A DNA stretch of 53,318 bases, from the IMG/VR virus record IMGVR_UViG_3300037602_000009, positions 1 through 53,318 of that record; one strand, given 5' to 3'. The DNA is from a virus (taxonomy: Duplodnaviria; Caudoviricetes). A program made the translations under genes and the position numbers. Under the pieces are notes generated by a model. The model did no database searches and was not told the DNA's origin. It worked only from the letters and a program-made list of their open reading frames with translations. This document shows positions 2,654 to 28,087 of this stretch, in pieces (the stretch's first letter is position 1; the number at the start of each line of letters is the position of its first letter).

Positions 2654-3001
2654 ATGATTGAATGTACCCAAGCCGACATAGACCGCTTCATGAAGCACGT
2701 GGACATCCTGCCGTGCGGCTGCTGGTTCTGGATCGGCGCGACCTCCAAGGGGAAAGGCAACCGCAAGCCTTATGGGACCTTCTGGGTCAACCGCAAGGTG
2801 GGCCGGGTCCGGGCTCATCGCTTCGCCTGTGAGGTGATCGGCAAGAAGGGCGAGCTGCCCAAAGGGCATGACCGGGACCACACCTGCCGCTTCAGCCTCT
2901 GCGTCAACCCGGACTGTATTGAGTACGTGACCAAGGCGGTGAACCAAGAACGCAAGCACAGCGGCTTCAGCCGCTTTCAGGAGGATCGGCCCCATGCGTG
3001 A
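2654..3001 (+). CDS. HNH endonuclease (Zn-binding, homing-type)
   Basis: GCWFWIG...YG...RAHRF...DHTCRFSLCVNPDC motifs; AAGGAG RBS. Confidence 0.85.
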   Translation: MIECTQADIDRFMKHVDILPCGCWFWIGATSKGKGNRKPYGTFWVNRKVGRVRAHRFACEVIGKKGELPKGHDRDHTCRFSLCVNPDCIEYVTKAVNQERKHSGFSRFQEDRPHA

Positions 3002-3782
3002 TGTCGTGATCGTTGGCGGGGGTTTGTTCGGCTCCATCGCAGCCGCCGCCCTCCGGGATGCCGGCATGGATGTCTGCCTGATTGATGACGGTCGCCCCCG
3101 CTCGGGCTCCCGGGCCGCCGGTTGCCTGATGAAACCGTCCTGGCTCAGTAAGATGGGCAGGGACAACGTGGACGCCTCTTTCAGGCTCCTGGACAGGCTG
3201 TACGGCCTCCGCACAATCTCGCTCAAAGCCGGGCCACTTTCCGTCAATGCGGAATGGGTCAACCCCGATCTGGTTTTGCGGTCCCCGCGCCAGATGCGGA
3301 AGGTCACAGCAACGCTCCCGGGCCGGGTCTATTTCGGCACAGGTGAGGTGCTGGAGGCCAAGAAGGTCATTGTGGCTTGCGGAGCCTGGACCAAGGCCCT
3401 CATTCCCGGTTGCGACGTGACCGGCAAGATCGGGGTCAGCATACGGCTCAACGCTGCGCCCGAGGACAACCGGATCGATCCCTGGGCACCCTACAAGCAG
3501 CTGGTGCGCTTCTCCACAGGCGACTTCCATTGGGCCGGGGACGGGACCGCCATCATTGAGAAGAATTGGACCCTGGACAGGGAGCGGGCCTCACTGGACC
3601 GCATCATTGAGTTCGCCGGGGAAGGTCAGGCCCGGGTCGGCATCCGGCCCTATGTCTCGACCTCTGACCCGGCGGCCCTGGAGGAGGTCGCCCCCGGCCT
3701 CTGGAGCCTGACTGGTGGGGGCAAGAACGGGACGGCAGCCGCAGGCTGGGCCGCTTCCCGCCTGTTGGAGGCCTTAACATGA
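2994..3782 (+). CDS. FAD-dependent oxidoreductase (DAO-like), probable flavin-dependent lyase of thymidine hypermodification
   Basis: N-terminal DVVIVGGGLFG Rossmann motif, SRAAGCL, VIVACGAW, VGIRP and GGGKNG; adjacent to modification genes. Confidence 0.8.
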   Translation: MRDVVIVGGGLFGSIAAAALRDAGMDVCLIDDGRPRSGSRAAGCLMKPSWLSKMGRDNVDASFRLLDRLYGLRTISLKAGPLSVNAEWVNPDLVLRSPRQMRKVTATLPGRVYFGTGEVLEAKKVIVACGAWTKALIPGCDVTGKIGVSIRLNAAPEDNRIDPWAPYKQLVRFSTGDFHWAGDGTAIIEKNWTLDRERASLDRIIEFAGEGQARVGIRPYVSTSDPAALEEVAPGLWSLTGGGKNGTAAAGWAASRLLEALT

Positions 3783-4009
3783 AGGTGATATACAAGTGCC
3801 GTTGTATGGACGCTGAGCGCTCCATCGACGTCACGGCCCGGGTCCCCGAGGGGGACCTACAAGAATGGATGGAAGGCGTTGTCATCAACTGCGTCGCCTA
3901 TGACCACGCCGGTCACTATCCCAACTGTCAATCCACCCACATGGACTGGCTCAAGATACCCATGATTGATGAGGAGGCCCCAATTGGCGTCGATGTCACC
4001 CGCAACTGA
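3779..4009 (+). CDS. Small Cys/His-rich hypothetical protein
   Basis: Translationally coupled to the FAD gene; CRC...C...H..H...C pattern. Confidence 0.65.
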   Translation: MKVIYKCRCMDAERSIDVTARVPEGDLQEWMEGVVINCVAYDHAGHYPNCQSTHMDWLKIPMIDEEAPIGVDVTRN

Positions 4010-4793
4010 GACCAACGACCCTGTTGCCTGGGGTCGCCGTCTCATCGAAACCAACGACCATGACCCGCTGTATGCCGCCTTGGGCCAGTGGGATGTGAAA
4101 GGCTCCCGGCTCCGCCGGTTCATGCTCGCCTATTGGTGCTGTTACAGCGTCGGGGCGAGCTGGTGGTTGAGCCAACATTCCGGGACCCGGTTCTGGGAGC
4201 AGCTCACCATTGCCGCCCATAATGCCAAGCCGTCGCCGCTCGGGGGCCGTTGGCCCAGAGCGCACGAGCGTCGTCACTGGCGCGGCGATAAGTGCGTGAA
4301 CAGCGTGCTGTGGCTCGCAGATCGGTTCAAGCACCCCGAGGAGGCGGTGCTGTCCCTTGAGGCCGCCCGCTCCCTGGGCGACGTCAACCGGCTGATGGAC
4401 TGGCCTCAGTTTGGTCCGTGGATCGCCTTCAAGGCGGCTGACATGCTGGAGCGCGTCCTTGCCGTCCCGGTCGCCTTCCCCGAGGAAATTGTGACGCTCT
4501 ACAAGGACCCCAAGGAGGGGGCTGACATGGCCGCCCAAGTGATCGGCGGTCTATATGGTCCGCAGGAAGTGGTCCAACTCATGCTGGAAAGCTATTCTGA
4601 CATCATCGCCCCCGGCTTCAAGGGCTCGGGCCGGGTCTGTAACATCCAGGAAGTGGAGACGGTTCTGTGTAAGTGGAAGTCAGCCCGCAAGGGTCATTAC
4701 TTCATCGGCAAGGACACAGCCGACCACAGGGCTGAGCTGCTCGCTTGGGATGCTCAAGACCTTCTCGCTGTGTACCCAATCACCCCCGCTTGA
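3993..4793 (+). CDS. Amino acid:DNA transferase (aGPT-Pplase2 / ADDT family)
   Basis: LIETNDHDPLY, AYWCCYS, WPRAHERRHWRG, FGPWIAFKAADMLERV and EVETVLCKWKS motifs; cluster context. Confidence 0.8.
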   Translation: MSPATETNDPVAWGRRLIETNDHDPLYAALGQWDVKGSRLRRFMLAYWCCYSVGASWWLSQHSGTRFWEQLTIAAHNAKPSPLGGRWPRAHERRHWRGDKCVNSVLWLADRFKHPEEAVLSLEAARSLGDVNRLMDWPQFGPWIAFKAADMLERVLAVPVAFPEEIVTLYKDPKEGADMAAQVIGGLYGPQEVVQLMLESYSDIIAPGFKGSGRVCNIQEVETVLCKWKSARKGHYFIGKDTADHRAELLAWDAQDLLAVYPITPA

Positions 4794-4845: not shown

Positions 4846-5475
4846 ATGATCATAAACATCAGAGGCACCAACGGGTCTGGTAAGACCCACTTGGCTCGCC
4901 AGCTCATCGGGGCGGATGCGCACCCGGTTGATCTGGTCTGGTATGACGCACCCACCAAGAAGGTCCCCGACCGCAAGCTGTCCGTGGAGGGCTGGGGTCA
5001 GCCTGACGAGTTCTTTGCGGTCGGGTCCTACAAGCAGGGCTGCGGCGGCATGGACACCATCCCGAGCTTTGAGCTTCAGCAATCCGCCGTTCGGGTCGCT
5101 GCTGACTGGAAGCATGAAGGAGGCCGCCCCCTTGGCGGTCACGGCCCACGCCATGTCGTGTGCGAGGGCGTCCTGGCTTCCACCGTCTATGGAAGCTGGG
5201 GTGAGTTCTTTCGGGAGATGGAAGCGGCTCACCACAGCGTCATCGTGGCCTATCTGGACACCCCCCTGGAGCTGTGCCTTGAGCGCATCACCGCCCGTCA
5301 GATCGCCGCCAAGGGCGAGGCTCGGGAGATCAAGACCGATCTGGTGGCGAACAAGATCAAGGCGATTGAGGCGACCCGGGCGAGGTTCAAGGCCGCCGGC
5401 ATTCTCACCGTAACCCTTCGCCATGGCTCCGCCCTGAGCGACCTTCATGAGGCACTTGAATATGGCGCGCATTGA
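4846..5475 (+). CDS. P-loop nucleotide/DNA kinase of the 5-hmdU modification system
   Basis: INIRGTNGSGKT Walker A, GCGGMDTI, VVCEGVL and LDTPLELCLERI. Confidence 0.8.
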   Translation: MIINIRGTNGSGKTHLARQLIGADAHPVDLVWYDAPTKKVPDRKLSVEGWGQPDEFFAVGSYKQGCGGMDTIPSFELQQSAVRVAADWKHEGGRPLGGHGPRHVVCEGVLASTVYGSWGEFFREMEAAHHSVIVAYLDTPLELCLERITARQIAAKGEAREIKTDLVANKIKAIEATRARFKAAGILTVTLRHGSALSDLHEALEYGAH

Positions 5476-6454
5476 CGCTTCTCCGCTCTGGGCCTGGGCC
5501 AACGAGCGCCACGCCATCTACATCCGCAAGGAGCTTCGGGCCGGACGGTCGCCCGAGGAGCTTCATATTGCGGCGGACTGCGAGGACCTCCAGGACTGTG
5601 ACCCGGAGGGCTTCGCCATCAACGAGGTCGGGCCGTACACTGATGACCCGATCCTCCAGCAGTACCGCTTCTGTAACGTGTTCCGGGAGCTGGACCGGGT
5701 GACGGTCTGGGTTGAGGAGAACATCCGCAAGCCATTCAAGGATCACCCCGACCTGTGGTTGATGCTTGCCATCGCCCGTTACATCAACTGGCCCGACACC
5801 CTCAAGTTCTTGATTGAGAGCGGCTATTGCTGGCCCAATCAAGACTTCACACCCGAGGACCTGGGCCGTGCTCTGGACTATCGGAAGGCCCAGGGGGGCA
5901 AGCTCTACACCGGGGCGTACATGATCCGGGCTGAGAGCAATCCCAACGCTGAATGGTACAGCTGGACCAAGCAGCAGTACATTGCCCGCATCGTGATCGG
6001 TCGCCTGTGGGAGGATCGGGAGCAGTGGAGGGCGATGCTGGAGGACCAGCCCGAGGGCGGCCTGGAGTTGGAAGCCGTTTGGCAGCTGTTCCAGTCCCCG
6101 CGCTACATCGGCTGGGGGCCGTTCATGAGCTATCAGGTGGTGGTGGACCTCCGCTGGACCCATTACCTGCGCAACGCCCCGGACATCAACACGTGGGCGG
6201 CCCTCGGGCCGGGCTCCCGGCGCGGCCTCAACCGGCTCGCCGGGCGTGATCTGGACTTCAACCTCACTCAGGCTCAGGGCCTGGAGGAAATGCGCCAGAT
6301 TTGGGAGGAGCAGGACCAGTACCGCGCCCCCTGGGTCCCCCGCATCGACCTCAGCGACATCCAGAACTGTCTCTGTGAGACAGACAAGTATCTCCGGGTC
6401 AAGCTCGGGGAAGGCAAGCCCCGGGCTCAGTATGTCCCGGGCCGTGGTTATTGA
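5462..6454 (+). CDS. aGPT-Pplase1 / 5-hmdU DNA kinase helical-domain protein
   Basis: ERHAIYIRKE, YTDDPILQQYRFCNVFRELDRVT, GPFMSYQVVVDL, GPGSRRGLNRL and IQNCLCETDKY motifs. Confidence 0.85.
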   Translation: MARIDASPLWAWANERHAIYIRKELRAGRSPEELHIAADCEDLQDCDPEGFAINEVGPYTDDPILQQYRFCNVFRELDRVTVWVEENIRKPFKDHPDLWLMLAIARYINWPDTLKFLIESGYCWPNQDFTPEDLGRALDYRKAQGGKLYTGAYMIRAESNPNAEWYSWTKQQYIARIVIGRLWEDREQWRAMLEDQPEGGLELEAVWQLFQSPRYIGWGPFMSYQVVVDLRWTHYLRNAPDINTWAALGPGSRRGLNRLAGRDLDFNLTQAQGLEEMRQIWEEQDQYRAPWVPRIDLSDIQNCLCETDKYLRVKLGEGKPRAQYVPGRGY

Positions 6455-6469
6455 GAAAAGGAGAACGAC

Positions 6470-7099
6470 ATGGCCAGCACACGATTGACCAACAGCATAC
6501 GCGACAGCTTGCTCAAGAAGCTCCTTGAACGCGCCTTCAAGGCCCGTTGCGATGAGTTTCTGAAGCGGGCCGCCGCTTTCGCCGTCGCCGTCCACGCTGA
6601 TGTATTCGGCAAGGACCTGGAGAAGATGAACGCCCTGCCCAGGGGCTGGTTGCCGCAGGACGATGACATCATGGTCCGGTTTGGCGGGGACAACACCCGA
6701 CTGAGCTTCAAGGGCTCCCTGGGCTCTGGAGGCATCCCTGACGCCTTCCGGCGCTGCGGTTCCACCGGAGGTGACAGCGTGTACCTTCGCCTCACCGATA
6801 GCACTAAGGGCACCACGGCCAAGGTCTATAACGCCCGGGAGCCGCTCGCCTCTGAGTATGAGGGGCTCATCAATGAGCGCAAGGACCTATGTGATGAGAT
6901 TGAGCGCGCAGCTCGCACGGCCAAAGCCGCGATGGAAAGCTGCTCCACAATCGAAAAGCTCATCAAGGTCTGGCCCGAGGTGGAGGAGTTCGCCAAGGAG
7001 TTCTTGGTGGACGGTGAGCGCAAGGCTTTGCTCCCCGATGTCCCCCGGGCTCAGCTCAACAACCTACTTAATCTGCCGCCCGAGGAGAAAGCCGCATGA
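6470..7099 (+). CDS. Nmad5-like nucleotide-modification-associated protein
   Basis: RLTNSIRD N-terminus and TIEKLIKVWPE C-terminal motif; cluster context. Confidence 0.7.
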   Translation: MASTRLTNSIRDSLLKKLLERAFKARCDEFLKRAAAFAVAVHADVFGKDLEKMNALPRGWLPQDDDIMVRFGGDNTRLSFKGSLGSGGIPDAFRRCGSTGGDSVYLRLTDSTKGTTAKVYNAREPLASEYEGLINERKDLCDEIERAARTAKAAMESCSTIEKLIKVWPEVEEFAKEFLVDGERKALLPDVPRAQLNNLLNLPPEEKAA

Positions 7100-8196
7100 T
7101 CACGATTGAAGCACGCAACGTCAACGACGCCCTCTGGGCCGGGGGCTCTATGCTCCGCCAGATGGGCGTCCAGCGCGACAGCCGCAACGGGCCGGTGTTG
7201 GTTGCCCCGGCTCCAGTGTCAACGGTCTACATGAACCCGGTGGAGCGCGTCATGCTCCATCCCGGTCGGGACGCCAACCCATTCTTCCATCTGGTGGAAG
7301 CCCTGTGGATGCTCGCCGGTCGCAACGACCTCGCCACGCTGACTGAGTTCGTCAAGAACATGGCCAACTTTAGCGATGACGGCGGCAAGACACAGCCGGG
7401 GGCCTATGGCTTCCGCTGGCGCAAGCAATTCGACTATCGCCGGGGCCGGGAGCTGGATCAGCTCGCCTGGGCCATCAACCGGCTCAAGGCCGATCCCGAT
7501 GACCGCCGGGTGGTGATTCAGATGTGGGACCCGGCGGCGGACGCTTATGCCGCTGATCATGGGGGCAAGGACGTTCCCTGTAACCTCATCGCGCTGCCGT
7601 CGATTGGCACTGACGGGCGTTTGAACCTCACGGTGTACAACCGCTCAAATGATATGGTCTGGGGTGCCTACGGCGCAAACGCGGTGCATTTCTCCGTGCT
7701 CCAGGAGTATCTGGCCGCCATGATCGGGGTCCCCGTTGGGCAGTACTGGCAGGTTGCGAACAACTTCCATGCCTACCTGACCACGCTCGGGAAGGCCGGG
7801 GAGGAGCGGCCGTGGGGCCAGTCTCAGCTGGTCGGGACCGCTGGGCGCTTCCTCCCCGACCCCTATGTGTCCGGCAAGATCAAGCCCATGCCGATGTTCA
7901 CTGAAGGCCTCTCTCAGGAGGAGGTCCTTGACGACATTGAGATGTTCCTCAAGAACCCGGCCCGGGTCGGCATCCGGTCTGAGTTCCTGCGCAAGGTCGC
8001 CTGCCCGATGGTGATGGCTCACCGCGCCTTCAAGCGCTGGGGCGGCCTGGACGGCATCTCATCGGCTCGGGAGGTCCTGGACCAGATGCCCAAGGACAAC
8101 GACTGGAAGGCCGGGGCTGAGCTCTGGTTGAGCAACCGCGAGGCCAAGCTGCGCCGCGCACAGGACGATGGAGTGAGCCATGCTGCTGAAGATTAG
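7096..8196 (+). CDS. Thymidylate synthase-fold dUMP hydroxymethylase
   Basis: SRNG, RDANPFFHLVEALWMLAGRND, GAYGFRWR, DRRVVIQMWD, DVPCN (catalytic Cys) and NRSNDMVWGAYGANAVHFS. Confidence 0.88.
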   Translation: MITIEARNVNDALWAGGSMLRQMGVQRDSRNGPVLVAPAPVSTVYMNPVERVMLHPGRDANPFFHLVEALWMLAGRNDLATLTEFVKNMANFSDDGGKTQPGAYGFRWRKQFDYRRGRELDQLAWAINRLKADPDDRRVVIQMWDPAADAYAADHGGKDVPCNLIALPSIGTDGRLNLTVYNRSNDMVWGAYGANAVHFSVLQEYLAAMIGVPVGQYWQVANNFHAYLTTLGKAGEERPWGQSQLVGTAGRFLPDPYVSGKIKPMPMFTEGLSQEEVLDDIEMFLKNPARVGIRSEFLRKVACPMVMAHRAFKRWGGLDGISSAREVLDQMPKDNDWKAGAELWLSNREAKLRRAQDDGVSHAAED

Positions 8197-18111: not shown

Positions 18112-18251
18112 GCAAATCCCTTGGTTGGCTCGCCCTCGGGGCGGCAGTGGTTCTGGTCCTCTGGATTATGGCCGCAGATCATTCACAGTCGATGGAGCGC
18201 TGCCAAGCGGTGGCGAGCTTCGACACTTGTCATAAGGCGCTGAACCCATGA
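18108..18251 (+). CDS. Small membrane protein (47 aa, not in ORF track)
   Basis: MSKSLGWLALGAAVVLVLWIMAADHSQSMERCQAVASFDTCHKALNP; ATGA overlaps on both sides. Confidence 0.65.
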   Translation: MSKSLGWLALGAAVVLVLWIMAADHSQSMERCQAVASFDTCHKALNP

Positions 18252-19123
18252 TTTTCAAAGAGGAACTGGTTGTTCAATTGTTCTCAGATGCCCGAGAACG
18301 GTACAACATAAAACTGAAGCGGGATCGGGGAGAAATCAAGCCCTGGACAGATCACCCGTTCATGAGCGTCTATCATATGTGCAATGTCTTCCGGGACGAT
18401 GACGCAGTGAGTCAATACATTATGCGGGGCCTCTTGCCCCGAAATCAGGGCCAGGAGTGGTGGTTGGTTGTACTCGCCCGGCTGATCAATAATGAGGAAA
18501 GCCTGAAGCGGTTAGACCTAAATCGCATTGATCTATCAGAAATATTACTCAACACTTCAGCCTACAAGCTCAATACGCCCCTGGGCCTCAACAACCGACA
18601 AGGTATCCTGGAGTTGGTCGAAAAGGCCAGGAAGCGAAATTGGCCAGTTGAGACGTCTTTGTGTGGAGCTTGGCAATCTCTTTGCTCTATAGGTCTTTCA
18701 GCGTTCATAGCGTACCAGGCTGCGCATGACCTGAAGGGCTCTGACCTGCCGGCAGTACCAGAGGATGCCGACACCTGGACCTTCATGGGCATCGGCGCTG
18801 AGAGGGGCGCTTTGCGCCTCCGGGGCCACAACCTGGTGGAGTGGTATCGGGCCCAAGGCTTCAAGAAGCAAGAGGACGGGACCCGGGCGGACGGGCTTCC
18901 AGGCGGAGCCAGAATCAAAAAAGCTCTGAGAGAGTTGGAGGGTTCTGAAGATTGGGCCCTGAAAGCAGCTATTGAGGTATTGAAACTTTCCAAGGAGCCA
19001 GATTTGTGGCCATCAAATTGGCCCGCCTGGCATCTTGGGGAAGCGGAGCACATGTTGTGCGAGTTTGATAAACTGGAACGCTGGCGTCAGATCGGACCAG
19101 CGGGAGCAAGGAGATTTAGATGA
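18248..19123 (+). CDS. Second, divergent aGPT-Pplase1 / HMUDK-helical-domain protein
   Basis: ERYNIKLKR..G..KPWTDHP...CNVFRDDD, AFIAYQAAHDL, GIGAERG and EHMLCEFDK match the paralog at 5462; AT-rich. Confidence 0.8.
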   Translation: MIFKEELVVQLFSDARERYNIKLKRDRGEIKPWTDHPFMSVYHMCNVFRDDDAVSQYIMRGLLPRNQGQEWWLVVLARLINNEESLKRLDLNRIDLSEILLNTSAYKLNTPLGLNNRQGILELVEKARKRNWPVETSLCGAWQSLCSIGLSAFIAYQAAHDLKGSDLPAVPEDADTWTFMGIGAERGALRLRGHNLVEWYRAQGFKKQEDGTRADGLPGGARIKKALRELEGSEDWALKAAIEVLKLSKEPDLWPSNWPAWHLGEAEHMLCEFDKLERWRQIGPAGARRFR

Positions 19124-20491: not shown

Positions 20492-21004
20492 GTGTCGCAG
20501 TTCGGCCTGGGCAATCAGTTTTGGAAACAGCGCAGCCGGCACGGTGTCAAGCCGGTCTTTCCCGAGGGGCCGGAAGGCGCGGATATGCTCCGCCAGGCCT
20601 GTGAGGACTATTTCCAGTGGTGTGATGACAACCCCCTGTATGAGGAGAAGGCCTTCAGCTTTGAGGGTATGGTCACCACCCACGACAGCCCTAAGCTCCG
20701 GGCATACACCCTCAACGGCCTGACCCTCTTCATCGACGTATCGGACCAGACGTGGATCAACTGGCGCAATAGTCGGGCTGATTTACTTGAGGTCATTACA
20801 TGGGCTGAAAAGGTCATCAAGGATCAGAAGTTTGTTGCTGCGGCAGCGGGCCTCCTGAACGCCAACATCATCAGCCGCGACCTTGGACTTGCCGACAAGA
20901 CTGAGCTCACCGGCCCCGGTGGCGGGCCGGTTCAGACCATCACCGGGGAGATGACCCCGGCTGAGGCGGCGGACCTCTATGCGCAGACCCGGGAGGCGAA
21001 GTGA
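20492..21004 (+). CDS. terS: Terminase small subunit (P22 gp3-like)
   Basis: GNQFWKQRSRHG, YFQWCDDNPL, RAYTLNGL and AAAGLLNANIISRDLGLADK. Confidence 0.9.
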   Translation: MSQFGLGNQFWKQRSRHGVKPVFPEGPEGADMLRQACEDYFQWCDDNPLYEEKAFSFEGMVTTHDSPKLRAYTLNGLTLFIDVSDQTWINWRNSRADLLEVITWAEKVIKDQKFVAAAAGLLNANIISRDLGLADKTELTGPGGGPVQTITGEMTPAEAADLYAQTREAK

Positions 21005-22698
21005 ACGCACACGCCCCGATCACGGCTGAGGCCCCGAGCTGGCCCCCGGATTATGTCCGCCTGTTCCAGTGGCGTCAGCGTCAGCTCATCCTGTTCCGCA
21101 CCAAGCCCGAGATGCTTGCGGCGGCCAAGCTGTACTACAAGGACCACCCAGTTGAGTTCATTGAAGACTGGGTGGACACATACGATCCTCGCAATGCAGG
21201 CGTCCCGGGCAAGATCACCAGGATGCCCTTTGTCATGTTCCCGAGGCAGCGTGAGCTGACCTTGTTCTTGTACGCCTGCCTTGAGGGCGAGGCGGACGGC
21301 CTCATTGAGAAGTGCCGTGACGCCGGGGCCACGTGGCTATCGGTCGCCGTGTCGGTCCACCTCTGGCTGTTCTGGGACGGCATCTCCATCGGCTGGGGCT
21401 CCCGCAAGGAGCAGCTGGTGGACAAGCTCGGGGATATGGACAGCATCTTTGAAAAGATCAGGGCCGTGATCAGGGGCTTGCCGCCCGAGTTCCTCCCCGC
21501 CGGGTTCAGCGAGAAGGATCACATGACCTACATGCGGGTGCTCAACCCCGCGTCTCAGGCTTCCATCACCGGCGAGGCAGGCAACAACATCGGTCGCGGC
21601 GGTCGCAAGCGCATCTATTTCAAGGATGAAAGCGCCCACTATGAGCGCCCGGACCTGATTGAGGCTGCTCTGGGCGACAACACCCGCGTCCAGATCGACA
21701 TTTCATCAGTCAACGGCACAGGCAACGTGTTCCACCGTCGCCGGGAGAACGGCGTGGAGTGGGAGCCCGGCAAGCCGGTGGTCAAGGGAAAGGCCAACGT
21801 GTTTGTGTTCGATTGGCGACACCACCCGGAAAAGACGCTTGAGTGGTACAACGAGCGCCGCCAAAAGGCTGAGGATGAGGGCCTGCTCCACATCTTCGCC
21901 CAAGAGGTGGACCGCGACTACAGCAGCTCAGTGGAAGGTCGCATCATTCCCAAGGAGTGGATACAGGCCGCCGTCGATGCTCATGTCAAGCTCCAGTTCC
22001 TGGATGAGGGCAAGTGGGTTGCGGGCCTGGACGTGGCTGATGGAGGCGGGGACCGCAACGCCCTCGCCCAGCGCCGGGGCGTCGTGCTCAAGAAGGTTGA
22101 GGCCTGGGGTGCGGTTGACACAGGCGTGACGGCTCGCCGCGCTATCCAGAAGCTGACACGCCCCAACGAGACGGCCCTGATGTATGACTGCATCGGGGTC
22201 GGGGCAGGCGTCAAGAGCGAGTTCAACCGGCTCCGGGGCCTGGAGGAAAGCGGCGAGGTTGACACCACCAAGACCAAGTGGCCGCCCGGCCTGCGGGTGG
22301 AGCCCTGGAATGCTGGTCTGCCTCCTCTGTTCCCAGAGAAGCGGCTGATCAAGGGCGACAAGTCCAGCCCCCTGATCAAGGACCACTATCTGAACATCAA
22401 GGCCCAGGCTTGGTGGGAGCTGCGAGCCCGGTTCTGGAAAACCTTCCGTGCCATCACGGAGGGCATCGACTACGACACTGATGACCTCATCTCCATCGAC
22501 AGCTCGGGGTTCAAGACTGAGGACTTGGCCAAGCTCATTGATGAGCTGGCACAGGCCACTTCCTCTCTGAGCCCCGGTCGGCTAAAGTTGATGGTGGACA
22601 AGACCCCCGAGGGGACGCGCTCCCCGAACATGGCTGACGCGGTGGTGATGGCCTACTGGCCTGTCATGAGCCGGTACACCCTGGAGAATGTTGGATGA
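21001..22698 (+). CDS. terL: Terminase large subunit
   Basis: FPRQ, EKCRDAGATW, GRGGR, FKDESAH, ISSVNG, GLDVADGGGD and SPNMADA. Confidence 0.93.
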   Translation: MNAHAPITAEAPSWPPDYVRLFQWRQRQLILFRTKPEMLAAAKLYYKDHPVEFIEDWVDTYDPRNAGVPGKITRMPFVMFPRQRELTLFLYACLEGEADGLIEKCRDAGATWLSVAVSVHLWLFWDGISIGWGSRKEQLVDKLGDMDSIFEKIRAVIRGLPPEFLPAGFSEKDHMTYMRVLNPASQASITGEAGNNIGRGGRKRIYFKDESAHYERPDLIEAALGDNTRVQIDISSVNGTGNVFHRRRENGVEWEPGKPVVKGKANVFVFDWRHHPEKTLEWYNERRQKAEDEGLLHIFAQEVDRDYSSSVEGRIIPKEWIQAAVDAHVKLQFLDEGKWVAGLDVADGGGDRNALAQRRGVVLKKVEAWGAVDTGVTARRAIQKLTRPNETALMYDCIGVGAGVKSEFNRLRGLEESGEVDTTKTKWPPGLRVEPWNAGLPPLFPEKRLIKGDKSSPLIKDHYLNIKAQAWWELRARFWKTFRAITEGIDYDTDDLISIDSSGFKTEDLAKLIDELAQATSSLSPGRLKLMVDKTPEGTRSPNMADAVVMAYWPVMSRYTLENVG

Positions 22699-24536
22699 CC
22701 GATTTGATGACCACTGACAGCCTGCGCTCCCTGATCACCGGCCTGGGCGACCCGCTTCTGGACAAGTCCGCCTCTGTGGTCTATGGTCACCACGTCCTCA
22801 GCGACCTCCAGCTGATGAACGCCTATCGCAACACATGGTTGGCCAAGAAGATTGTCAACATCCCGGCCCTTGACGCCCTGCGCAAGTGGCGTGAGTGGCA
22901 GGCCGATCAGGGTCAGATCACGCTGATTGAGGGTGAGGAGAAGCGCCTGGGCCTCCAGCAGAAGGTACTCCAGTGCAAGACCCTCGCCAGGCTCTGGGGT
23001 GGAGCGGTCATCTACATCGGTGACGGCGGTGACGCCCAGGAGCCGTGGGAGCCTGAGAGCATCCAGAAGGGCGGCCTGAAGTATCTCACGGTGATGAGCC
23101 GCCGGGAGATGATCGCAGGCGAGCTGGAGCTGGACCCGACCCTTGAGACATACGGTTGGCCCAAGACCTATCAGGTGGCCAACTCTGTGGAGTTCTTGGA
23201 CATCCACCCGAGCCGGATTGTCGTTCAGATCGGTGACGCACACCCGGACCCCTGGAACACCATGACCAATGTCGGATGGGGTGACAGCGTCCTCCAGTCC
23301 GTGTGGACCTCCATCACGAATGCCGACAGCACGGCGGCCAACATCGCCAGCCTGGTGTTTGAGGCCAACGTGGATGTGTACAAAATCCCGGACCTGATGG
23401 AGCATCTGTCCAGCGCTGCCTATCGGGGCAAGCTCATCGACAAGTTCACGCTCGCCAACATCGGCAAGAGCGTGTCCAAGGCCCTCCTCACCGACAGCGA
23501 TGAGGAATATGAGCGCAAGCAGATCGCCTTCACCGGCCTCCCGGACGTGCTTCAGCAGTTCTTGATCCTGGTCTCCGGCGCGGCGGACATCCCGCTGACG
23601 CGCCTGCTTGGGCAGTCCCCCTCCGGGCTGAACAGCACCGGCGAACACGACATGAAGAACTATTATGACCGTGTTGCCTCCATGCAGACCCTGGAGATTG
23701 GCCCAGCACTCCACAAGCTGGATGAAGCCCTGATCCGCTCCGCTCTGGGCGACCGTCCGGCTGAGATTTTCTACAAGTGGGCTCCCCTGGAGCAGATGAG
23801 CGAGAAGGAATTGGCTGAGATCGGCAAGATGAACGCTGAGACAGCCAACATCCTCGCCGGCACCGGCCTCTTCATGCAGGAGGAGCTGCGTGAGGTTGTC
23901 GGCAACCAGTTTGTTGAGGATGGGTTCTATCCAGGCCTTGGCGACCTGCTCAAGAAGAATGGTGAACAGCTGCCCGAGTTTGACCTTGAGCGCCGTGCGA
24001 CGGAAGCCGGGGTCAAGGCACTTGAGGCCGGTCCTCAGCCCGAGGAGCCCGGCGTGACCGGCGACGCAGCCCCGCGCCCCCTGTACCTGCGCCGCGACGT
24101 CAAGAACGCGGCTGACATCATCAAGTGGTACAAGGACCAGGGCGTGCCCGAGGTCTATGCGCCTGAGAGCATGCACGTCACTATTGTGTACAGCAAGAAG
24201 CCGATGGACTGGATGGCGATGGGCCAGCCTTGGGATGCGACCCTTGAAATCCCCGAGGGCGGCCCGCGCATCAGTGAGCGCTTCGGGGACATGGGTGACG
24301 TCCTTGTCCTGCTGTTCGCCTCCAACGAGCTTCAGTGGCGGCACGGCCTGGCCAAGGAGCTGGGCGCAAGCAGCGACTTCCCCGAGTATCAGCCGCACAT
24401 CTCCATCAGCCTGCGTGCGAGCGAGATTGACCTGGTCAACGTCAAGCCGTGGACCGGCCCAATCATCCTCGGGCCGGAGGTCTATGAGGAGATTGACGAC
24501 GCGGGTGACTGGCGTGAGAAGGTCGCCACTGAATGA
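22695..24536 (+). CDS. Portal protein (DUF1073 type) fused to C-terminal Acb1-like 2H phosphoesterase
   Basis: Portal motifs WLAKKIVNIPA, ARLWGG, IHPSR, WGDSVLQ and AADIPLTRLLGQSPSGLNSTGE; C-terminal ~160 aa with HVT and HIS 2H motifs. Confidence 0.9.
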   Translation: MTDLMTTDSLRSLITGLGDPLLDKSASVVYGHHVLSDLQLMNAYRNTWLAKKIVNIPALDALRKWREWQADQGQITLIEGEEKRLGLQQKVLQCKTLARLWGGAVIYIGDGGDAQEPWEPESIQKGGLKYLTVMSRREMIAGELELDPTLETYGWPKTYQVANSVEFLDIHPSRIVVQIGDAHPDPWNTMTNVGWGDSVLQSVWTSITNADSTAANIASLVFEANVDVYKIPDLMEHLSSAAYRGKLIDKFTLANIGKSVSKALLTDSDEEYERKQIAFTGLPDVLQQFLILVSGAADIPLTRLLGQSPSGLNSTGEHDMKNYYDRVASMQTLEIGPALHKLDEALIRSALGDRPAEIFYKWAPLEQMSEKELAEIGKMNAETANILAGTGLFMQEELREVVGNQFVEDGFYPGLGDLLKKNGEQLPEFDLERRATEAGVKALEAGPQPEEPGVTGDAAPRPLYLRRDVKNAADIIKWYKDQGVPEVYAPESMHVTIVYSKKPMDWMAMGQPWDATLEIPEGGPRISERFGDMGDVLVLLFASNELQWRHGLAKELGASSDFPEYQPHISISLRASEIDLVNVKPWTGPIILGPEVYEEIDDAGDWREKVATE

Positions 24537-25318
24537 AGTACGATCTGGCAGCCATGGTGAAGAACCGGCGGCCCGGGACGGCGGCTCAGTTGCCCGTCAT
24601 CCCGGTCCCCCTGGGCCTTGAGCGCTCATACCTCGCCCAGCTCCGCCGGATTGAACACGAGGTCGCCCGGGGCATCCGGGAGATCATCCTGCCCGCCTAT
24701 GTCAGCAAGCTGACCACGGACGCAGATGAGTCATCCATGTCCGCCCTCCGGCTGCTGGTCGGGGCGATGGTGCGGGCCGTCTCGGGACAGGTCTCACAGC
24801 TCATGGCCCTTGAGGGGGCGAACCATACCAAGAAGTGGATGACCAACGCCCGGCGAGCGTTCGGCATCAACCTCGCCTCTGTGATCCTTGAGAATGATCT
24901 TGAGGGCTTCATGGAGGCCGTGAGCTTGCGCAATGCCTCCCTCATTCAGGGCTTTGCTGACGACATCCTCAAGCGTGTCGCCACACAGACGGCAACAAGC
25001 CTTATTGCCGGTGAGTCAGCTGCCACGCTACAGGCGAAGCTGAAGCGCCAACTTGAGATCAGTGACGCCCGAGCCTGGCTCATCGCCCGGGACCAGACGG
25101 CCAAGCTCACTGCCGATCTGAACCGCAAGCGTCATGAGGACGCAGGCATTGACAGCTACATCTGGCGCACGAGCCAGGATGAGCGGGTGCGGCCTCGCCA
25201 TGCTGCGCTGGAGGGGAAGCGCTACAAGTACGGCGAGCCCACCGGCGCGGAGGAGGGTCTGCCCCCTGGGCAACCCATCCAGTGTCGATGCGTCGCCCAA
25301 GCAATCGTGGAGTTCTGA
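24533..25318 (+). CDS. Head morphogenesis / minor head protein (SPP1 gp7, Mu gpF)
   Basis: RAWLIARDQTAKL, YIWRTSQDERVRPRH and PGQPIQCRC. Confidence 0.92.
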   Translation: MKYDLAAMVKNRRPGTAAQLPVIPVPLGLERSYLAQLRRIEHEVARGIREIILPAYVSKLTTDADESSMSALRLLVGAMVRAVSGQVSQLMALEGANHTKKWMTNARRAFGINLASVILENDLEGFMEAVSLRNASLIQGFADDILKRVATQTATSLIAGESAATLQAKLKRQLEISDARAWLIARDQTAKLTADLNRKRHEDAGIDSYIWRTSQDERVRPRHAALEGKRYKYGEPTGAEEGLPPGQPIQCRCVAQAIVEF

Positions 25319-25498
25319 ATGTCATGTCGTTGCGCTGAGAGGCGAGCAGCAATTGTTGGGGCTGTGAAGCAACCAACCACAGTCTTGACGGCTGCCAGAT
25401 TTGTCGCTAAAACGGGAGCCCAAGACGTTGCCACCGTGACCGCTGAGGGAACAAGGCGTGTTATGGACTTCCTCCAGAGAAGGGGGCTGAGGAGCTGA
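25319..25498 (+). CDS. Small hypothetical protein (59 aa, not in ORF track)
   Basis: MSCRCAERRAAIVG...; exactly fills the gap and is TGATG-coupled to the next gene. Confidence 0.55.
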   Translation: MSCRCAERRAAIVGAVKQPTTVLTAARFVAKTGAQDVATVTAEGTRRVMDFLQRRGLRS

Positions 25499-26667
25499 TG
25501 CAGTTCACCGATGCAGTAACGATCAAGGGCACACGTCTCCGTGACGATGGTTATCTTGTCGTGGACGCTCGGGTGGCTCGCACCGGCATCCAGCGCTATC
25601 TTGGCAGTGAAGTGGGTCGCCCGGACCTCGCCGTGGTCGATGTGTACCGGCCCGAGGCTGAAGTGTTCAGCGCCGATGCCATGGCATCCTTTGCCCACCG
25701 TCCCGTCACCGACGATCACCCCAAGGGGGCTGTGACTGCTGACAACTGGAAACAGCTGTCAGTCGGCCAGACCGATGGTGAGATCAAGCGTGATGGCGAC
25801 TTCCTCCGCATCCCCCTCATGGTGGCCGATGCCGCGACCATTCAGAAGGTTCAGGCTGGAAAGCGTGAACTGAGCGCAGGATACACCTGCGACCTGAAGT
25901 GGGAGCCCGGCACCACCCCGGACGGCCTCAAGTATGATGCTGTCCAGACCAACATCCGCGCCAACCACGTGGCAATCGTCACGCGGGGCCGCGCCGGTTC
26001 AGATGTTCGCATTGGCGACGATGCTGACAAGTGGGGCACCGCCCCGATCACCACCGCGCACGACAAGGAGACTTCCATGACCACGCGCAATGTTATGGTG
26101 GATGGGCTTTCGGTTGAAACTACCGATGCTGGTGCCCAGGCCATCACCAAGCTGCTCGCAGACCGCAAGACCCTTGAGGACAAGCTCCGTGAGCAGGACC
26201 AGGAAAACGACAAGAAGCTCAAGGCCAAGGACGCTGAAGTCAGCGCCATCCAGGCCAAGCTGGACGATGCCCTGGGCAAGGTCCTCACCCCGGATGCCGT
26301 CTCCAAGCTGGTGGCTGACCGTGTTGCCCTGGAAGCGACGGCGGCCAAGATCACCCCGGACGTGAAGGCCACCGGCCTGTCCGATGCGGCCCTGAAGCAG
26401 GCCGTGGTCAAGGCGAAGCTCGGGGACAAGCTCCCGGCTGAGCGTCTCGCTGATCAGGCGTACATCGACGCCCGGTTTGACATCCTCGCTGAAGATGCCG
26501 GCAAGACGCAGGACACCTTCCGTCAGGCCCGCATGGGCGACGGTCGCCCGGCGGCCCCGGGCTCCGCTCCGCTCAATATGAGCGATGCTCAGCGCGTTCG
26601 CCAGCAGGCCTTTGATGACCTGCTCCACTTCGATCAGACTGGTGCCGAGCGCCAGGCTGCCAACTGA
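25498..26667 (+). CDS. DUF2213 prohead protease / scaffold
   Basis: ARTGIQRY, VYRPEAEVF, PVTDDHP, RELSAGY and NHVAIVTRGRAG; coiled-coil C-terminus. Confidence 0.88.
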   Translation: MQFTDAVTIKGTRLRDDGYLVVDARVARTGIQRYLGSEVGRPDLAVVDVYRPEAEVFSADAMASFAHRPVTDDHPKGAVTADNWKQLSVGQTDGEIKRDGDFLRIPLMVADAATIQKVQAGKRELSAGYTCDLKWEPGTTPDGLKYDAVQTNIRANHVAIVTRGRAGSDVRIGDDADKWGTAPITTAHDKETSMTTRNVMVDGLSVETTDAGAQAITKLLADRKTLEDKLREQDQENDKKLKAKDAEVSAIQAKLDDALGKVLTPDAVSKLVADRVALEATAAKITPDVKATGLSDAALKQAVVKAKLGDKLPAERLADQAYIDARFDILAEDAGKTQDTFRQARMGDGRPAAPGSAPLNMSDAQRVRQQAFDDLLHFDQTGAERQAAN

Positions 26668-26677
26668 GGGCTGACCG

Positions 26678-27130
26678 ATGCCGTACAGCGAGAACTACGC
26701 AACTGATCCCGAGGTCGCGCAGGAAGGTCAGGTTGCTGACACCTCCCCGGCCACGATCCTATCCCGCACCGTCGATGCTGAAATTGGCTTCGGCAAGGCC
26801 GTTCAGAAGGGTGCCAAGCAGCACTCTGTGAAGGCTGCTGTTGACGCCGTTCACGGCATCACCGTGCGGTCGCAGGCAACCGGCGCACGCGCCGCTTCGC
26901 CCGATGTCTACCCGGCCAACGACACGGCTGCCATCATCACCCAGGGTCCGATCTGGGTCAAGGTGGACAGCACGGTTGCGGAAGGAGATGACGTCACCGT
27001 CACCGTCGCCACCGGCCTGTTCGGCACCAAGGCAGTTGCTGCCGGGGTCATCGCCGTCCCGGGTGCGGTGTTCGACACCGGGGCCGCCGCAAACGGCCTC
27101 GCCCGCATCCGCATCAACCTGCCGCAGTAA
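26678..27130 (+). CDS. Head decoration / cement protein
   Basis: Position between protease and MCP; IGFGKAV, G.IWV and beta-rich sequence. Confidence 0.75.
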   Translation: MPYSENYATDPEVAQEGQVADTSPATILSRTVDAEIGFGKAVQKGAKQHSVKAAVDAVHGITVRSQATGARAASPDVYPANDTAAIITQGPIWVKVDSTVAEGDDVTVTVATGLFGTKAVAAGVIAVPGAVFDTGAAANGLARIRINLPQ

Positions 27131-27142
27131 GGACCGCAGACG

Positions 27143-28087
27143 ATGAACAACAACCAGCTCATGGTCGGTGATGCGATGCAGGCGAACCTCGGGTTCGTTG
27201 AGTCGCAGACCGCATACGTGGAGGCCGGTGTCTATCGCACCCGCTTCCCCGCCATCCGTTACCCTGGCCTGATCCCGGTGGATTACTCCGCCCCCGAGTG
27301 GATCAAGACCATCACTTACTACAGCATGGACATCTCGGGCCGTGCTGACTGGATCGGGGACCGCGCAAGCGACATCCCGGTTGTCGGCACCCGTCTGGCG
27401 CAGGATGAAACTGCCATCCAGATGGCCGGCATTGGGTATGACTATGGCCTTGAAGAGGTCAACCAGGCCCTCATGCTCGGCATGAACCTGCCCGGCGAGA
27501 AGGCCGCTGCTGCGCGCCTGATCTATGAGCGCACCGTGGACAACATCGCCTTCACCGGCGACACCGAGAAGGGCTGGAAGGGGCTGTACAACAACACCTC
27601 TGTGACGGCTATCGCGGCGACCAACGGTGACTGGGACCTCGGCACGACCACTGAGGATCAAATCCTTGCTGACGTGAACGAGCTTCTGGGCGGTGTCTAC
27701 ACGGCCACCAATGAAATCGCCATGGCGGACACGCTTCTGCTGCCGAGCCTCAAGCTCCAGAAGATCGCGTCCACCCGCCTGGGCGACGGCAACGGTGCCC
27801 TGACCATCCTCCAGTTCCTCCAGCAGGCCAACGTCTACACGGCGGAAACGGGCAACCCGCTCCGCATTCGTGGCGCACGCGGCCTGAATACGGCAGGCGC
27901 TGGTGGTACGGCCCGCATGGTCGCATACCGCAACAGCCCGGAAGTGCTCAAGATGCACATCCCGATGCGCCACCGCTTCCTGCCGGTCCAGATCGTCGGC
28001 CTGACCTACAAGGTCCCCGGCATCTTCCGTCTGGGCCCCCTGGACATCCGCCTTCCCAAGGAAGTGCGCTACAGCGACGGCATCTGA
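27143..28087 (+). CDS. Major capsid protein (DUF2184 type)
   Basis: LIPVD, YDYGLEE, DNIAFTGD...GLYN and RMVAY...HIPM motifs. Confidence 0.9.
   Translation: MNNNQLMVGDAMQANLGFVESQTAYVEAGVYRTRFPAIRYPGLIPVDYSAPEWIKTITYYSMDISGRADWIGDRASDIPVVGTRLAQDETAIQMAGIGYDYGLEEVNQALMLGMNLPGEKAAAARLIYERTVDNIAFTGDTEKGWKGLYNNTSVTAIAATNGDWDLGTTTEDQILADVNELLGGVYTATNEIAMADTLLLPSLKLQKIASTRLGDGNGALTILQFLQQANVYTAETGNPLRIRGARGLNTAGAGGTARMVAYRNSPEVLKMHIPMRHRFLPVQIVGLTYKVPGIFRLGPLDIRLPKEVRYSDGI

What the first reader, a model, noticed from the sequence alone, without database searches (positions are those of the whole stretch)
22695..24536. Portal protein fused to an Acb1-like anti-CBASS phosphoesterase, with two possible release routes
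Seen: the DUF1073-type portal ends at about aa 450. After a Pro/Glu linker come ~160 aa carrying two 2H motifs (MHVTIVYS, His at 24174; QPHISIS, His at 24396) plus LVL...L..RH...GA..DFPEYQPH. Also seen at the junction: an in-frame GTG (24054) 6 nt after GAGGAG, and the sequence VTGD-AA. Known: T4 Acb1 is a ~150-aa 2H phosphoesterase that degrades cyclic oligonucleotide signals of CBASS, and CBASS can be triggered by late virion-assembly events. Inference: the counter-defence enzyme is tied to head assembly. It could be made stand-alone from the internal start, or carried on the portal ring and clipped off in the prohead, possibly for delivery with the DNA. Similar fusions probably exist in databases; the release and delivery mechanism is the open part.
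Basis: partly seen in the sequence, partly recalled or inferred. Interest (0 to 1): 0.85.

Follow-up and report, generated by a model that had tools for sequence, protein, structure and literature searches.

The report
Phage portal protein carrying Acb1 enzyme
This uncultured phage makes its head-portal protein with an intact copy of Acb1, the enzyme phages use to destroy bacterial CBASS alarm nucleotides, tethered to the end that faces the capsid interior; the fusion is real, but it is common and was already described in print.

Summary
ORF 22695..24536 (+) encodes 613 aa: a PF06381 portal (E 1.4e-101), a disordered acidic/Pro linker (aa 425-457), and a PF23474 Acb1 domain (E 2.6e-34) with both catalytic His motifs. 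Eight of nine functional residues mapped from T4 Acb1 are kept.

The architecture is not new. 119 of the 120 best database homologues have it, and NCBI names some "anti-CBASS protein Acb1 family protein". The solved Pam3 portal (PDB 8hds) has the same domain in its sequence. Iyer et al. (2017, 2022) described 2H-portal/MuF fusions and proposed head packaging and injection. This scan has also reported it before on other DNA.

New here:
- The GAGGAG-GTG internal start is not conserved: 8 of 58 fused relatives have any SD+start near the junction, against 7.25 expected by chance.
- No split form was seen in 80 loci. The module is absent in 12 of the 80, which needs at least 7 changes on the tree.
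- The Pam3 virion model covers 442 of 621 residues, so the domain is not modelled there.
- The neighbouring DUF2213 gene looks like an assemblin-type protease-scaffold.
- The same Acb1 subfamily is also fused to other portal families and to prohead proteases.

Clipping and delivery remain untested. This is a new member of a known kind.

The parts
22695..24536 (+). Portal-Acb1 fusion gene, 613 aa, stop included
22809..23849 (+). Portal core (aa 39-385), PF06381 Phage_portal_3 / TIGR01555
   Evidence: E 1.4e-101.. Foldseek to Pam3 portal 8hds_A: E 2.2e-39, 61% identity over 433 columns.
23850..23966 (+). C-terminal crown/barrel helices of the portal (aa 386-424), the part that faces the capsid interior
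   Evidence: AF2 helices H395-409 and H415-422. The Pam3 paper orders the parts barrel, crown, wing, stem, clip from inside to outside. The Pa193 paper describes a C-terminal barrel.
23967..24065 (+). Disordered acidic/Pro/Ala linker (aa 425-457)
   Evidence: pLDDT below 50. In 88 homologues that could be anchored, the linker is 21-88 aa (median 40.5), with E 15%, A 14%, D 8% and P 8%.
24042..24056 (+). GAGGAG, 6-nt spacer, in-frame GTG (V454): SD-like start signal, judged to be chance
24066..24533 (+). Acb1-type 2H phosphodiesterase domain (aa 458-613; Pfam match aa 462-606)
   Evidence: 7t26 by sequence: E 1.5e-10. 7t26 by fold: TM 0.78, rmsd 3.1. pLDDT 83-91.
24174..24182 (+). First catalytic motif H494-V-T496, equivalent to T4 Acb1 H44/T46
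   Evidence: H and T are present in all 42 aligned fused domains. At least 90% conserved in A1.
24396..24404 (+). Second catalytic motif H568-I-S570, equivalent to T4 Acb1 H113/T115
   Evidence: H in 42 of 42; the third position is S in 29 and T in 13.
24486..24533 (+). C-terminal lid region with E598 and W606 (equivalent to T4 E141 and W147); the C-terminus is free
   Evidence: The role of the lid comes from Hobbs 2022, section 6.
20492..22698 (+). Small terminase (20492-21004) and large terminase (21001-22698), directly upstream
24533..25318 (+). MuF-like minor head protein; its start overlaps the portal stop
   Evidence: PF04233, E 1.7e-18
25498..26667 (+). DUF2213 protein: probable assemblin-like prohead protease (aa 15-174) fused to a helical scaffold
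   Evidence: PF09979. phrog_530 'head maturation protease', E 3e-106. Invariant H74, S126, H157. Top Foldseek hits are herpesvirus assemblins and T4 gp21, but weak (E 2e-3 to 1e-2). Pa193 gp24 scaffolding protein, E 2e-15.
26678..28087 (+). Cement protein (26678-27130) and major capsid protein (27143-28087), in the same order as Pam3 gp6 and gp7

Best explanation
The gene makes one polypeptide. It consists of a Pam3-type portal, a flexible linker of about 33 aa, and a catalytically intact Acb1-type phosphodiesterase for cyclic di- and trinucleotides.

**Shown**
- Both domains are present in one frame.
- The catalytic and most ligand-contact residues are conserved.
- The architecture is widespread.
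- The module is accessory: it is repeatedly absent in relatives and never split off as its own gene.

**Follows from established portal topology**
- The portal's C-terminus (crown/barrel) points into the capsid.
- Every assembled head therefore carries 12 tethered enzyme domains at the inner mouth of the portal channel.
- The enzyme's N-terminus is tethered, and its C-terminal substrate lid is free.

**Inferred**
- The enzyme degrades CBASS-type cyclic oligonucleotide signals.
- It is made with the late head genes, so the whole pool (free, ring-assembled and procapsid-bound portal) can act in the producing cell at the time when structural proteins trigger CBASS.
- The fusion exists mainly to load the enzyme into the head as cargo, as Iyer et al. 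proposed for 2H-portal/MuF fusions.

**Speculative**
- The enzyme is released from the portal by the neighbouring assemblin-like protease and leaves the capsid with the DNA.

An internal translation start is not part of the mechanism.
For: **Domain identity**
- Pfam, PHROG and NCBIfam matches.
- Sequence and fold match to FBB1 Acb1, PDB 7t26/7t27.

**Functional residues mapped from T4 Acb1**
- Y12 to Y464, H44 to H494, T46 to T496, F107 to F562, H113 to H568, T115 to S570, E141 to E598, W147 to W606.
- The roles of these residues come from Hobbs 2022, section 6.
- An HxT motif is present in 88 of 88 anchored homologues, and the second H[IV][ST] motif in 85 of 88.

**The fusion is the rule**
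- 119 of the 120 best hits carry both Pfam domains.
- 68 of 80 distinct loci are fused, 12 are unfused and 0 are split.
- 110 of the 150 nearest 50%-identity representatives have portal homology N-terminal to the domain.

**The module is accessory**
- A relative with 82% identity ends cleanly in the linker, with no acb1 gene nearby.
- On the portal tree the fused/unfused label needs at least 7 changes.

**Inward-facing C-terminus**
- Pam3 and Pa193 papers.

**Cargo reading**
- Of the 42 non-standard representatives given to Pfam, all 42 have Acb1 and 18 have Phage_portal_3.
- Others carry different head-interior partners: Portal_Mu (5), Phage_portal (1), Peptidase_S78_2 (4), DUF2213 (2).
- Some carry effector-type domains: ADP-ribosyltransferase (7+1), NUDIX (3), Zeta toxin (2).
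- P0104 is portal + Acb1 + ADP-ribosyltransferase.

**Prior proposal in print**
- PMC5512222 and PMC9503650.
Against: - No biochemical or genetic test exists for any portal-fused Acb1 in the papers I could search.
- T4 W74, one of four base-stacking residues, aligns to E528. F530 is nearby, so this may be an alignment shift.
- The portal stays with the capsid, so delivery needs a cleavage that nothing here demonstrates.
- The conserved D-A-x-P motif at the junction also occurs, or is approximated, in N-terminally extended non-portal forms. It is absent from one stand-alone form. It may therefore belong to the domain rather than be a protease site.
- Twelve copies per cell is a small dose.
- The protease assignment of DUF2213 rests on weak fold matches, none at E <= 0.001. 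Pam3 and Pa193 annotate the homologue only as scaffold.
- Fusion could be a by-product of tight gene packing (overlapping stop/start) in the head operon.
Confidence: 0.65

Rival explanations
1. The enzyme acts only in the producing cell. It matters only as a late-expressed cytoplasmic pool of portal-Acb1. Encapsidation of 12 copies is incidental, and nothing is released or delivered.
For: - CBASS signalling is generally triggered late, and late co-expression gives far more copies than the 12 in a virion (general knowledge, not tested here).
- No cleavage is shown.
- The junction motif is explainable as part of the domain.
- Gene overlap (ATGA) in this operon makes accidental fusions easy.
Against: - Co-expression does not need a covalent link, yet none of 68 fused lineages has reverted to two genes.
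- The same Acb1 subfamily is fused independently to three portal families and two prohead-protease families, often alongside ADP-ribosyltransferase, NUDIX or Zeta-toxin domains. This pattern points to the head interior as the selected location.
Confidence: 0.3
2. A stand-alone Acb1 of about 17 kDa is translated from the internal GTG at 24054, using the GAGGAG as its ribosome-binding site.
For: A good SD-like hexamer with 6-nt spacing and an in-frame GTG lie at the very start of the domain. One other relative, L002, also has an SD+GTG two codons before the junction.
Against: - Of 58 fused relatives analysed, 30 have no in-frame ATG/GTG/TTG in the 28 codons around the junction.
- 8 of 58 have an SD+start there, against 7.25 expected from the background rate of 146 sites in 32,700 codons. 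Ten further fused loci were not analysed because my junction pattern missed them.
- The nearest relative, L001 (86% identity), has none.
- V454 is not conserved.
- GAGGAG simply encodes Glu-Glu in an acidic linker.
- The same ORF has three other in-frame SD-like+start sites, at aa 226, 228 and 484.
Confidence: 0.05
3. The 2H domain is not an anti-CBASS enzyme. It is an RNA-end-processing or RNase-type 2H enzyme (2',3'-cyclic phosphodiesterase, tRNA repair, or Usb1-like), as PHROG's label 'RNA ligase' and part of Iyer et al. 2017 suggest.
For: phrog_755 is labelled RNA ligase. Iyer 2017 considered an RNase role for portal/MuF-fused 2H domains. The T4 W74 equivalent is not aromatic in the alignment.
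Against: - phrog_755 is the family of T4 57B itself, which is the characterised Acb1.
- The Pfam Acb1 score is 122.7 bits, against 11.7 bits for the 2'-5' RNA ligase family.
- The adenine-contacting Glu, the lid Trp and three of the four stacking residues of Acb1 are kept.
- No RNA ligase gene was seen in the window's larger ORFs. Not every ORF was scanned.
Confidence: 0.08

Closest known systems
Acb1 (phage T4 gene 57B; Erwinia phage FBB1 Acb1, PDB 7t26/7t27; Pfam PF23474; Hobbs et al. 2022, PMC9117128)
   Same: 2H fold, HxT/HxS tetrad, Tyr/Phe/Trp stacking residues, adenine-contacting Glu and a C-terminal lid.
   Different: Here it is not a free 152-aa protein but the C-terminal domain of the portal, with about 27-35% identity to T4/FBB1. 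The T4 W74 position is Glu in the alignment. Activity is untested.
Portal gp3 of cyanophage Pam3 (PDB 8hds; Yang et al. 2023, PMC9942802)
   Same: Same two-domain protein (621 aa; C-terminal domain E 4e-54; portal part 61% identical by Foldseek). Same gene order: TerS, TerL, portal, MuF-like, DUF2213, cement, MCP.
   Different: The host is a cyanobacterium. The paper passages I read do not mention the Acb1-like domain. The deposited model has 442 of 621 residues, so the domain was not built.
2H phosphoesterase fusions to portal or MuF in phage 'polyvalent'/head-packaged effector proteins (Iyer et al. 2017, PMC5512222; Iyer et al. 2022, PMC9503650)
   Same: The same architecture and the same proposed meaning: packaged into the head and injected to counter nucleotide-based immune signalling.
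   Different: Those papers are comparative and predictive only. This window is one more instance, with a single cargo domain.
Capsid-internal, ejected anti-defence or takeover proteins (T4 IPI* and Alt; P1 DarA/DarB)
   Same: Enzymes or inhibitors loaded into the head during assembly. In T4, acb1 lies next to ipI, and ADP-ribosyltransferase domains ride on the same portals in relatives.
   Different: Those proteins are free in the head after protease processing or scaffold-mediated loading, and their ejection is documented (recalled knowledge). Here the cargo is covalently joined to the portal and release is unproven.

Membership tests
Acb1 (PF23474) | Sequence match to the family model above its curated threshold | tested here: met
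   118.5 bits (whole protein) and 122.7 bits (domain alone) against a cutoff of 27.
Acb1 (PF23474) | 2H phosphoesterase fold resembling the solved Acb1 | tested here: met
   Foldseek to 7t26: E 2.5e-9, TM (target) 0.78, rmsd 3.1 over 147 columns. 7t26 and 7t27 are the only 2H entries among the listed hits.
Acb1 (PF23474) | Catalytic HxT/HxT tetrad (T4 H44, T46, H113, T115) | tested here: met
   H494, T496, H568, S570. H, T and H are present in all 42 aligned domains; the last position is S in 29 and T in 13.
Acb1 (PF23474) | Base-stacking aromatics (T4 Y12, W74, F107, W147) and the adenine-contacting E141 | tested here: inconclusive
   Y464, F562, W606 and E598 align. W74 aligns to E528, with F530 two residues on.
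Acb1 (PF23474) | Cleaves 3'3'-cGAMP, cUA and cA3, and rescues phage from CBASS | not testable with these tools
   Needs enzyme assays and plaque assays.
Phage portal, PF06381 / TIGR01555 (Pam3 gp3 type) | Family match, portal fold, and a position after the large terminase | tested here: met
   E 1.4e-101. 258 bits against a cutoff of 196. 8hds_A E 2.2e-39. Gene order.
Head-packaged effector fusions (Iyer et al. 2017/2022) | Effector domain covalently joined to portal, MuF or another head-interior protein in the head gene module; homologues carry further effector domains | tested here: met
   Partners among the 42 representatives given to Pfam: Phage_portal_3 (18), Portal_Mu (5), Phage_portal (1), Peptidase_S78_2 (4), DUF2213 (2), ADP-ribosyltransferase (7+1), NUDIX (3), Zeta toxin (2).
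Head-packaged effector fusions (Iyer et al. 2017/2022) | Physical presence in the virion and injection into the host | not testable with these tools
   The only indirect data point is that the domain is in the sequence of the Pam3 virion portal but not in its model.
Assemblin-like prohead serine protease (for the neighbouring DUF2213 gene) | Assemblin/gp21 fold with a conserved His-Ser-His set | tested here: inconclusive
   The top Foldseek hits are herpesvirus proteases and T4 gp21, but with E 2e-3 to 1e-2 and TM 0.27-0.43. H74, S126 and H157 are invariant in 44 sequences. The comparison with the herpesvirus triad is recalled, not tested.

The most novel reading that the evidence does not exclude
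The assemblin-like DUF2213 protease clips the portal linker at or near the conserved D457-A458-A-P junction inside the prohead. This frees 12 folded Acb1 molecules that sit at the inner mouth of the portal, like ejection proteins. They leave with the DNA and degrade CBASS signals in the next host before any phage gene is expressed. The same route would serve the ADP-ribosyltransferase, NUDIX and Zeta-toxin domains that ride on related portals.
Probability: 0.25. Interest if true: 0.65.

Novelty: new member of a known kind. Interest (0 to 1): 0.3.

Why it matters
If portal-tethered Acb1 is really carried in the head and released, it would be the first demonstrated case of a phage pre-loading a signal-degrading enzyme against cyclic-nucleotide immunity. 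The portal's inward-facing C-terminus would then be shown to be a general cargo hook.

As it stands, the window adds one more clean example. It belongs to a complete 53-kb genome, syntenic with the structurally solved phage Pam3, in a class predicted in 2017/2022 and never tested at the bench.

The useful by-products are practical:
- The internal-start route can be dropped.
- A natural domain-less relative marks where to truncate.
- Pam3, the Rhizobium RHph phages and Pseudomonas phiPSA1 are cultivable systems in which cleavage and delivery can be tested.

Tried and rejected
- **Internal start at 24054.** Rejected as a family feature.
- **'VTGD-AA' as a conserved cleavage site.** Only D-A-x-P-R is conserved. 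A similar motif occurs in proteins without a portal part: P0126, P0128, P0129 and Edwardsiella ZHS_4. The stand-alone RcXuper protein starts directly at the first strand. The motif cannot be assigned to a protease site.
- **Split forms.** I looked for a portal followed by a separate acb1 gene in 80 distinct loci and found none. A search for near-length (88-280 aa) close relatives gave only 7 proteins, several of them on very short contigs and probably fragments.
- **The 'prohead protease' label on the Edwardsiella phage hit (H94).** It turned out to be a 199-aa stand-alone Acb1-like protein beside the portal genes, not a protease fusion.
- **Literature on the fusion.** The terms acb1 + portal + cbass (17 papers hold them, 14 were listed; I read passages of 7), acb1 + fused + portal protein (2 papers) and portal protein + C-terminal domain + LigT + phage (0 papers) gave no description of the fusion. 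It was found only after a lead from earlier scan notes.
- **DUF2213 literature.** The search gave nothing on function.
- **A Pfam census of all 150 representatives at once.** It exceeded the size limit. It was done on 42 of the 50 non-standard ones; 8 short proteins were left out.
- **Supplements.** They may hold peptide coverage of the portal's C-terminal domain, or list a portal partner.


Full report
**What is there**

The window is a complete uncultured virus record of 53,318 bp with direct terminal repeats and 61.6% G+C. ORF 22695..24536 on the + strand encodes 613 aa. Pfam finds a Phage_portal_3 domain at aa 39-385 (E 1.4e-101) and an Acb1 domain at aa 462-606 (E 2.6e-34, 118.5 bits against a cutoff of 27). 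The 2'-5' RNA ligase family reaches only 11.7 bits.

The PHROG portal family phrog_146 matches aa 5-607 over 564 of its 587 profile positions. The C-terminal domain is therefore part of that family's profile. TIGR01555 is met.

These are the His codons at 24174 and 24396, and GAGGAG at 24042-24047 followed six bases later by GTG at 24054.

**Context**

The gene sits in a head module with this order:
- small terminase
- large terminase
- portal-Acb1
- MuF-like minor head protein
- DUF2213 protein
- cement protein
- major capsid protein
- neck, sheath and tape-measure genes

The head-gene order matches that of cyanophage Pam3.

**Structure**

An AlphaFold2 model built on 106 homologues has a mean pLDDT of 78.6. 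It gives a confident portal, a low-confidence linker at aa 425-457, and a confident α/β domain from R461 to about aa 610.

Foldseek places the portal part on the Pam3 portal 8hds_A (E 2.2e-39, 61% identity over 433 columns). It places the C-terminal domain on FBB1 Acb1, 7t26 (E 2.5e-9, TM 0.78, rmsd 3.1 Å over 147 columns). No other 2H enzyme appears among the listed hits.

By sequence, the Pam3 portal chain (621 residues) matches the window's domain at its residues 465-620 with E 4e-54. The deposited Pam3 chain has only 442 modelled residues. The domain was therefore not built in the virion map, either because it is mobile or because it is no longer attached. [quoted passage not shown]

**Is it an Acb1?**

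I took T4 gene 57B from a T4 record. Its residues Y12, H44, T46, W74, F107, H113, T115, E141 and W147 carry the numbering used by Hobbs et al.. In a MAFFT alignment with 42 fused domains they map as follows:

| T4 Acb1 | Window |
|---|---|
| Y12 | Y464 |
| H44 | H494 |
| T46 | T496 |
| W74 | E528 |
| F107 | F562 |
| H113 | H568 |
| T115 | S570 |
| E141 | E598 |
| W147 | W606 |

Eight of nine are kept or conservatively replaced. The W74 position is Glu, with a nearly invariant Phe two residues later.

Among 88 homologues that could be anchored by my patterns (33 of 121 could not), HxT is present in 88 and the second His motif in 85. The tether is at the enzyme's N-terminus, so the C-terminal lid that closes over the substrate is free.

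**How common, and is it in print?**

- Of 2,557 database proteins with E <= 1e-10, 119 of the 120 best listed carry both Pfam domains. NCBI names several prophage copies (Shinella, Roseibium, Rhizobium) "anti-CBASS protein Acb1 family protein".
- In cultivated phages, 40 records match the domain at E <= 1e-8. The first 32 rows listed lie under a gene annotated as portal or head protein, or under an unnamed gene, in Rhizobium, Sinorhizobium, Aminobacter, Pseudomonas syringae, Synechococcus and Pseudanabaena phages.
- In a library of 1.84 billion 50%-identity representatives, 2,007 match at E <= 0.001 and 1,368 at E <= 1e-10.
- Of the 150 best representatives, 110 have portal homology in front of the domain: 75 full length, 18 with a further C-terminal extension, and 17 apparent fragments.

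My first literature searches did not find the fusion described. Hobbs 2022 contains neither "portal" nor "fused". Doherty et al. 2025 list other partner domains for 13 of 75 viral 2H enzymes.

Earlier notes of this scan pointed to two papers, which I then read in passages:
- Iyer et al. [quoted passage not shown] They suggest these domains could degrade nucleotides of nucleotide-activated defence systems.
- Iyer et al. [quoted passage not shown]

The architecture and the delivery idea are therefore published. The scan has also reported the same thing at least eight times on other DNA.

**Release route 1: internal start**

I collected 80 distinct loci, including the window. Of these, 68 are fused and 12 are unfused.

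For 58 of the fused loci I examined the 28 codons ending just past the conserved junction Asp. Ten fused loci were dropped because my junction pattern missed them. The results:
- 30 of 58 have no in-frame ATG, GTG or TTG there.
- 8 of 58 have one preceded by an SD-like tetramer.
- The background rate in the same ORFs is 146 such sites in 32,700 codons, which predicts 7.25.
- Only the window and L002 have an SD+start within five codons of the junction.
- The closest relative, L001 (86% identity), has none.

The window's own ORF has four in-frame SD-like+start sites, at aa 226, 228, 454 and 484. V454 is not conserved. The GAGGAG encodes the Glu-Glu of an acidic linker. I conclude that the internal start is a chance feature.

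**Fused, lost, never split**

None of the 12 unfused loci has a separate acb1 ORF within the 3-4 kb fetched on each side. One of them, L009, is 82% identical to the window's portal. It ends in the linker (…ENPEPKAKLNEV), and its stop overlaps the MuF start.

A quick IQ-TREE tree was built on the portal part: 77 rows, with 3 N-terminally incomplete rows left out. The fused/unfused label needs at least 7 changes, 6 of them forced by well-supported branches. Unfused rows sit singly inside fused clades. The root is not inferred, so gain and loss cannot formally be told apart. The simplest reading is repeated loss of a dispensable module.

**Release route 2: clipping**

The DUF2213 protein two genes downstream is labelled head maturation protease by PHROGs (E 3e-106). 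Its model has a β-rich N-domain (aa 12-161), a disordered stretch (aa 175-193) and a long helical C-terminal part.

Its best structural matches are herpesvirus assemblin proteases and T4 gp21, but they are weak: E 2e-3 to 1e-2, with none at 0.001. H74, S126 and H157 are invariant in 44 sequences. This recalls the His-Ser-His set of assemblins; that comparison is from memory.

By sequence profile it matches Pa193 gp24, a putative scaffolding protein found in mature virions. The authors of that work could not tell whether gp24 is cleaved. A protease is thus plausibly present in the prohead, but no cleavage of the portal is shown.

The junction motif D-A-x-P-R-x-L-Y is at least 90% conserved, while the linkers before it are unalignable. 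Similar motifs occur in N-terminally extended proteins without a portal, and one stand-alone form lacks it. It may therefore be part of the domain rather than a protease site.

**Why a cargo reading is still the best fit**

I scanned 42 of the 50 non-standard representatives with Pfam; 8 short ones were left out. All 42 have Acb1 and 18 have Phage_portal_3. Others have different partners that all belong to the head interior:
- Portal_Mu (5)
- Phage_portal (1)
- the XkdF-type prohead protease Peptidase_S78_2 (4)
- DUF2213 (2)

Several carry additional domains of the kind seen in injected phage proteins: ADP-ribosyltransferase (7, plus 1 ART), NUDIX (3) and Zeta toxin (2).

P0104 is portal + Acb1 + ADP-ribosyltransferase. 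Independent joining to several unrelated head-interior proteins, together with the absence of reversion to two genes, argues that location inside the head is what selection maintains. This is the argument of Iyer et al.; I add counts, not a test.

**Verdict**

The family assignment is sound. The internal-start route is not supported. The clipping and delivery route is open, and I give it about 0.25. The finding is a clean new member of a known, published but experimentally untested class.

Noticed in passing
window 5447-6454, 18248-19123, 7096-8196: Two proteins with the 5-hmdU DNA kinase helical domain (PF18723; E 4e-47 and 7e-22) and a thymidylate-synthase-like protein (PF00303; E 2e-22). 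Together they suggest a thymidine hypermodification pathway, which would be a second anti-defence layer in the same phage.
   Followed up: no
L009 (IMG/VR contig of 53,128 bp), 3001-4356: A close relative (82% identical portal) lacks the Acb1 module cleanly. Its portal ends in the linker, and its stop overlaps the MuF start. A 154-aa ORF, not a terminase, lies just upstream.
   Followed up: partly
P0104 (817 aa), P0148 (1172 aa) and 16 other representatives: Portals that carry Acb1 plus a further C-terminal domain: ADP-ribosyltransferase, Zeta-toxin-like kinase, NUDIX or ChaB.
   Followed up: partly
P0164, P0189, P0196 (1603-1792 aa): Very large proteins with the same Acb1 subfamily domain at their extreme N-terminus. 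Their remaining domains were not resolved individually.
   Followed up: no
window 25498-26667, aa 173-183 of the DUF2213 protein: The disordered hinge between the protease-like and scaffold parts begins with invariant G173 and D174, followed by a majority 'xAxxWGxAP'. It is loosely reminiscent of the D-A-A-P at the portal-Acb1 junction. This may be coincidence.
   Followed up: no
L097 (Edwardsiella phage vB_EpM_ZHS), 2116-2715: The gene annotated 'prohead protease' is a 199-aa stand-alone Acb1-like protein lying between the terminase and the portal genes. The annotation looks wrong.
   Followed up: partly
P0060 (668 aa): A fused relative with a linker insert of about 55 aa rich in A/L/T (…LALNGAQVTSMQQLVQAVAEGTMPLETAKAVISAAFPALTETEISAI…). 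It looks like a small folded helical module rather than a disordered spacer.
   Followed up: no
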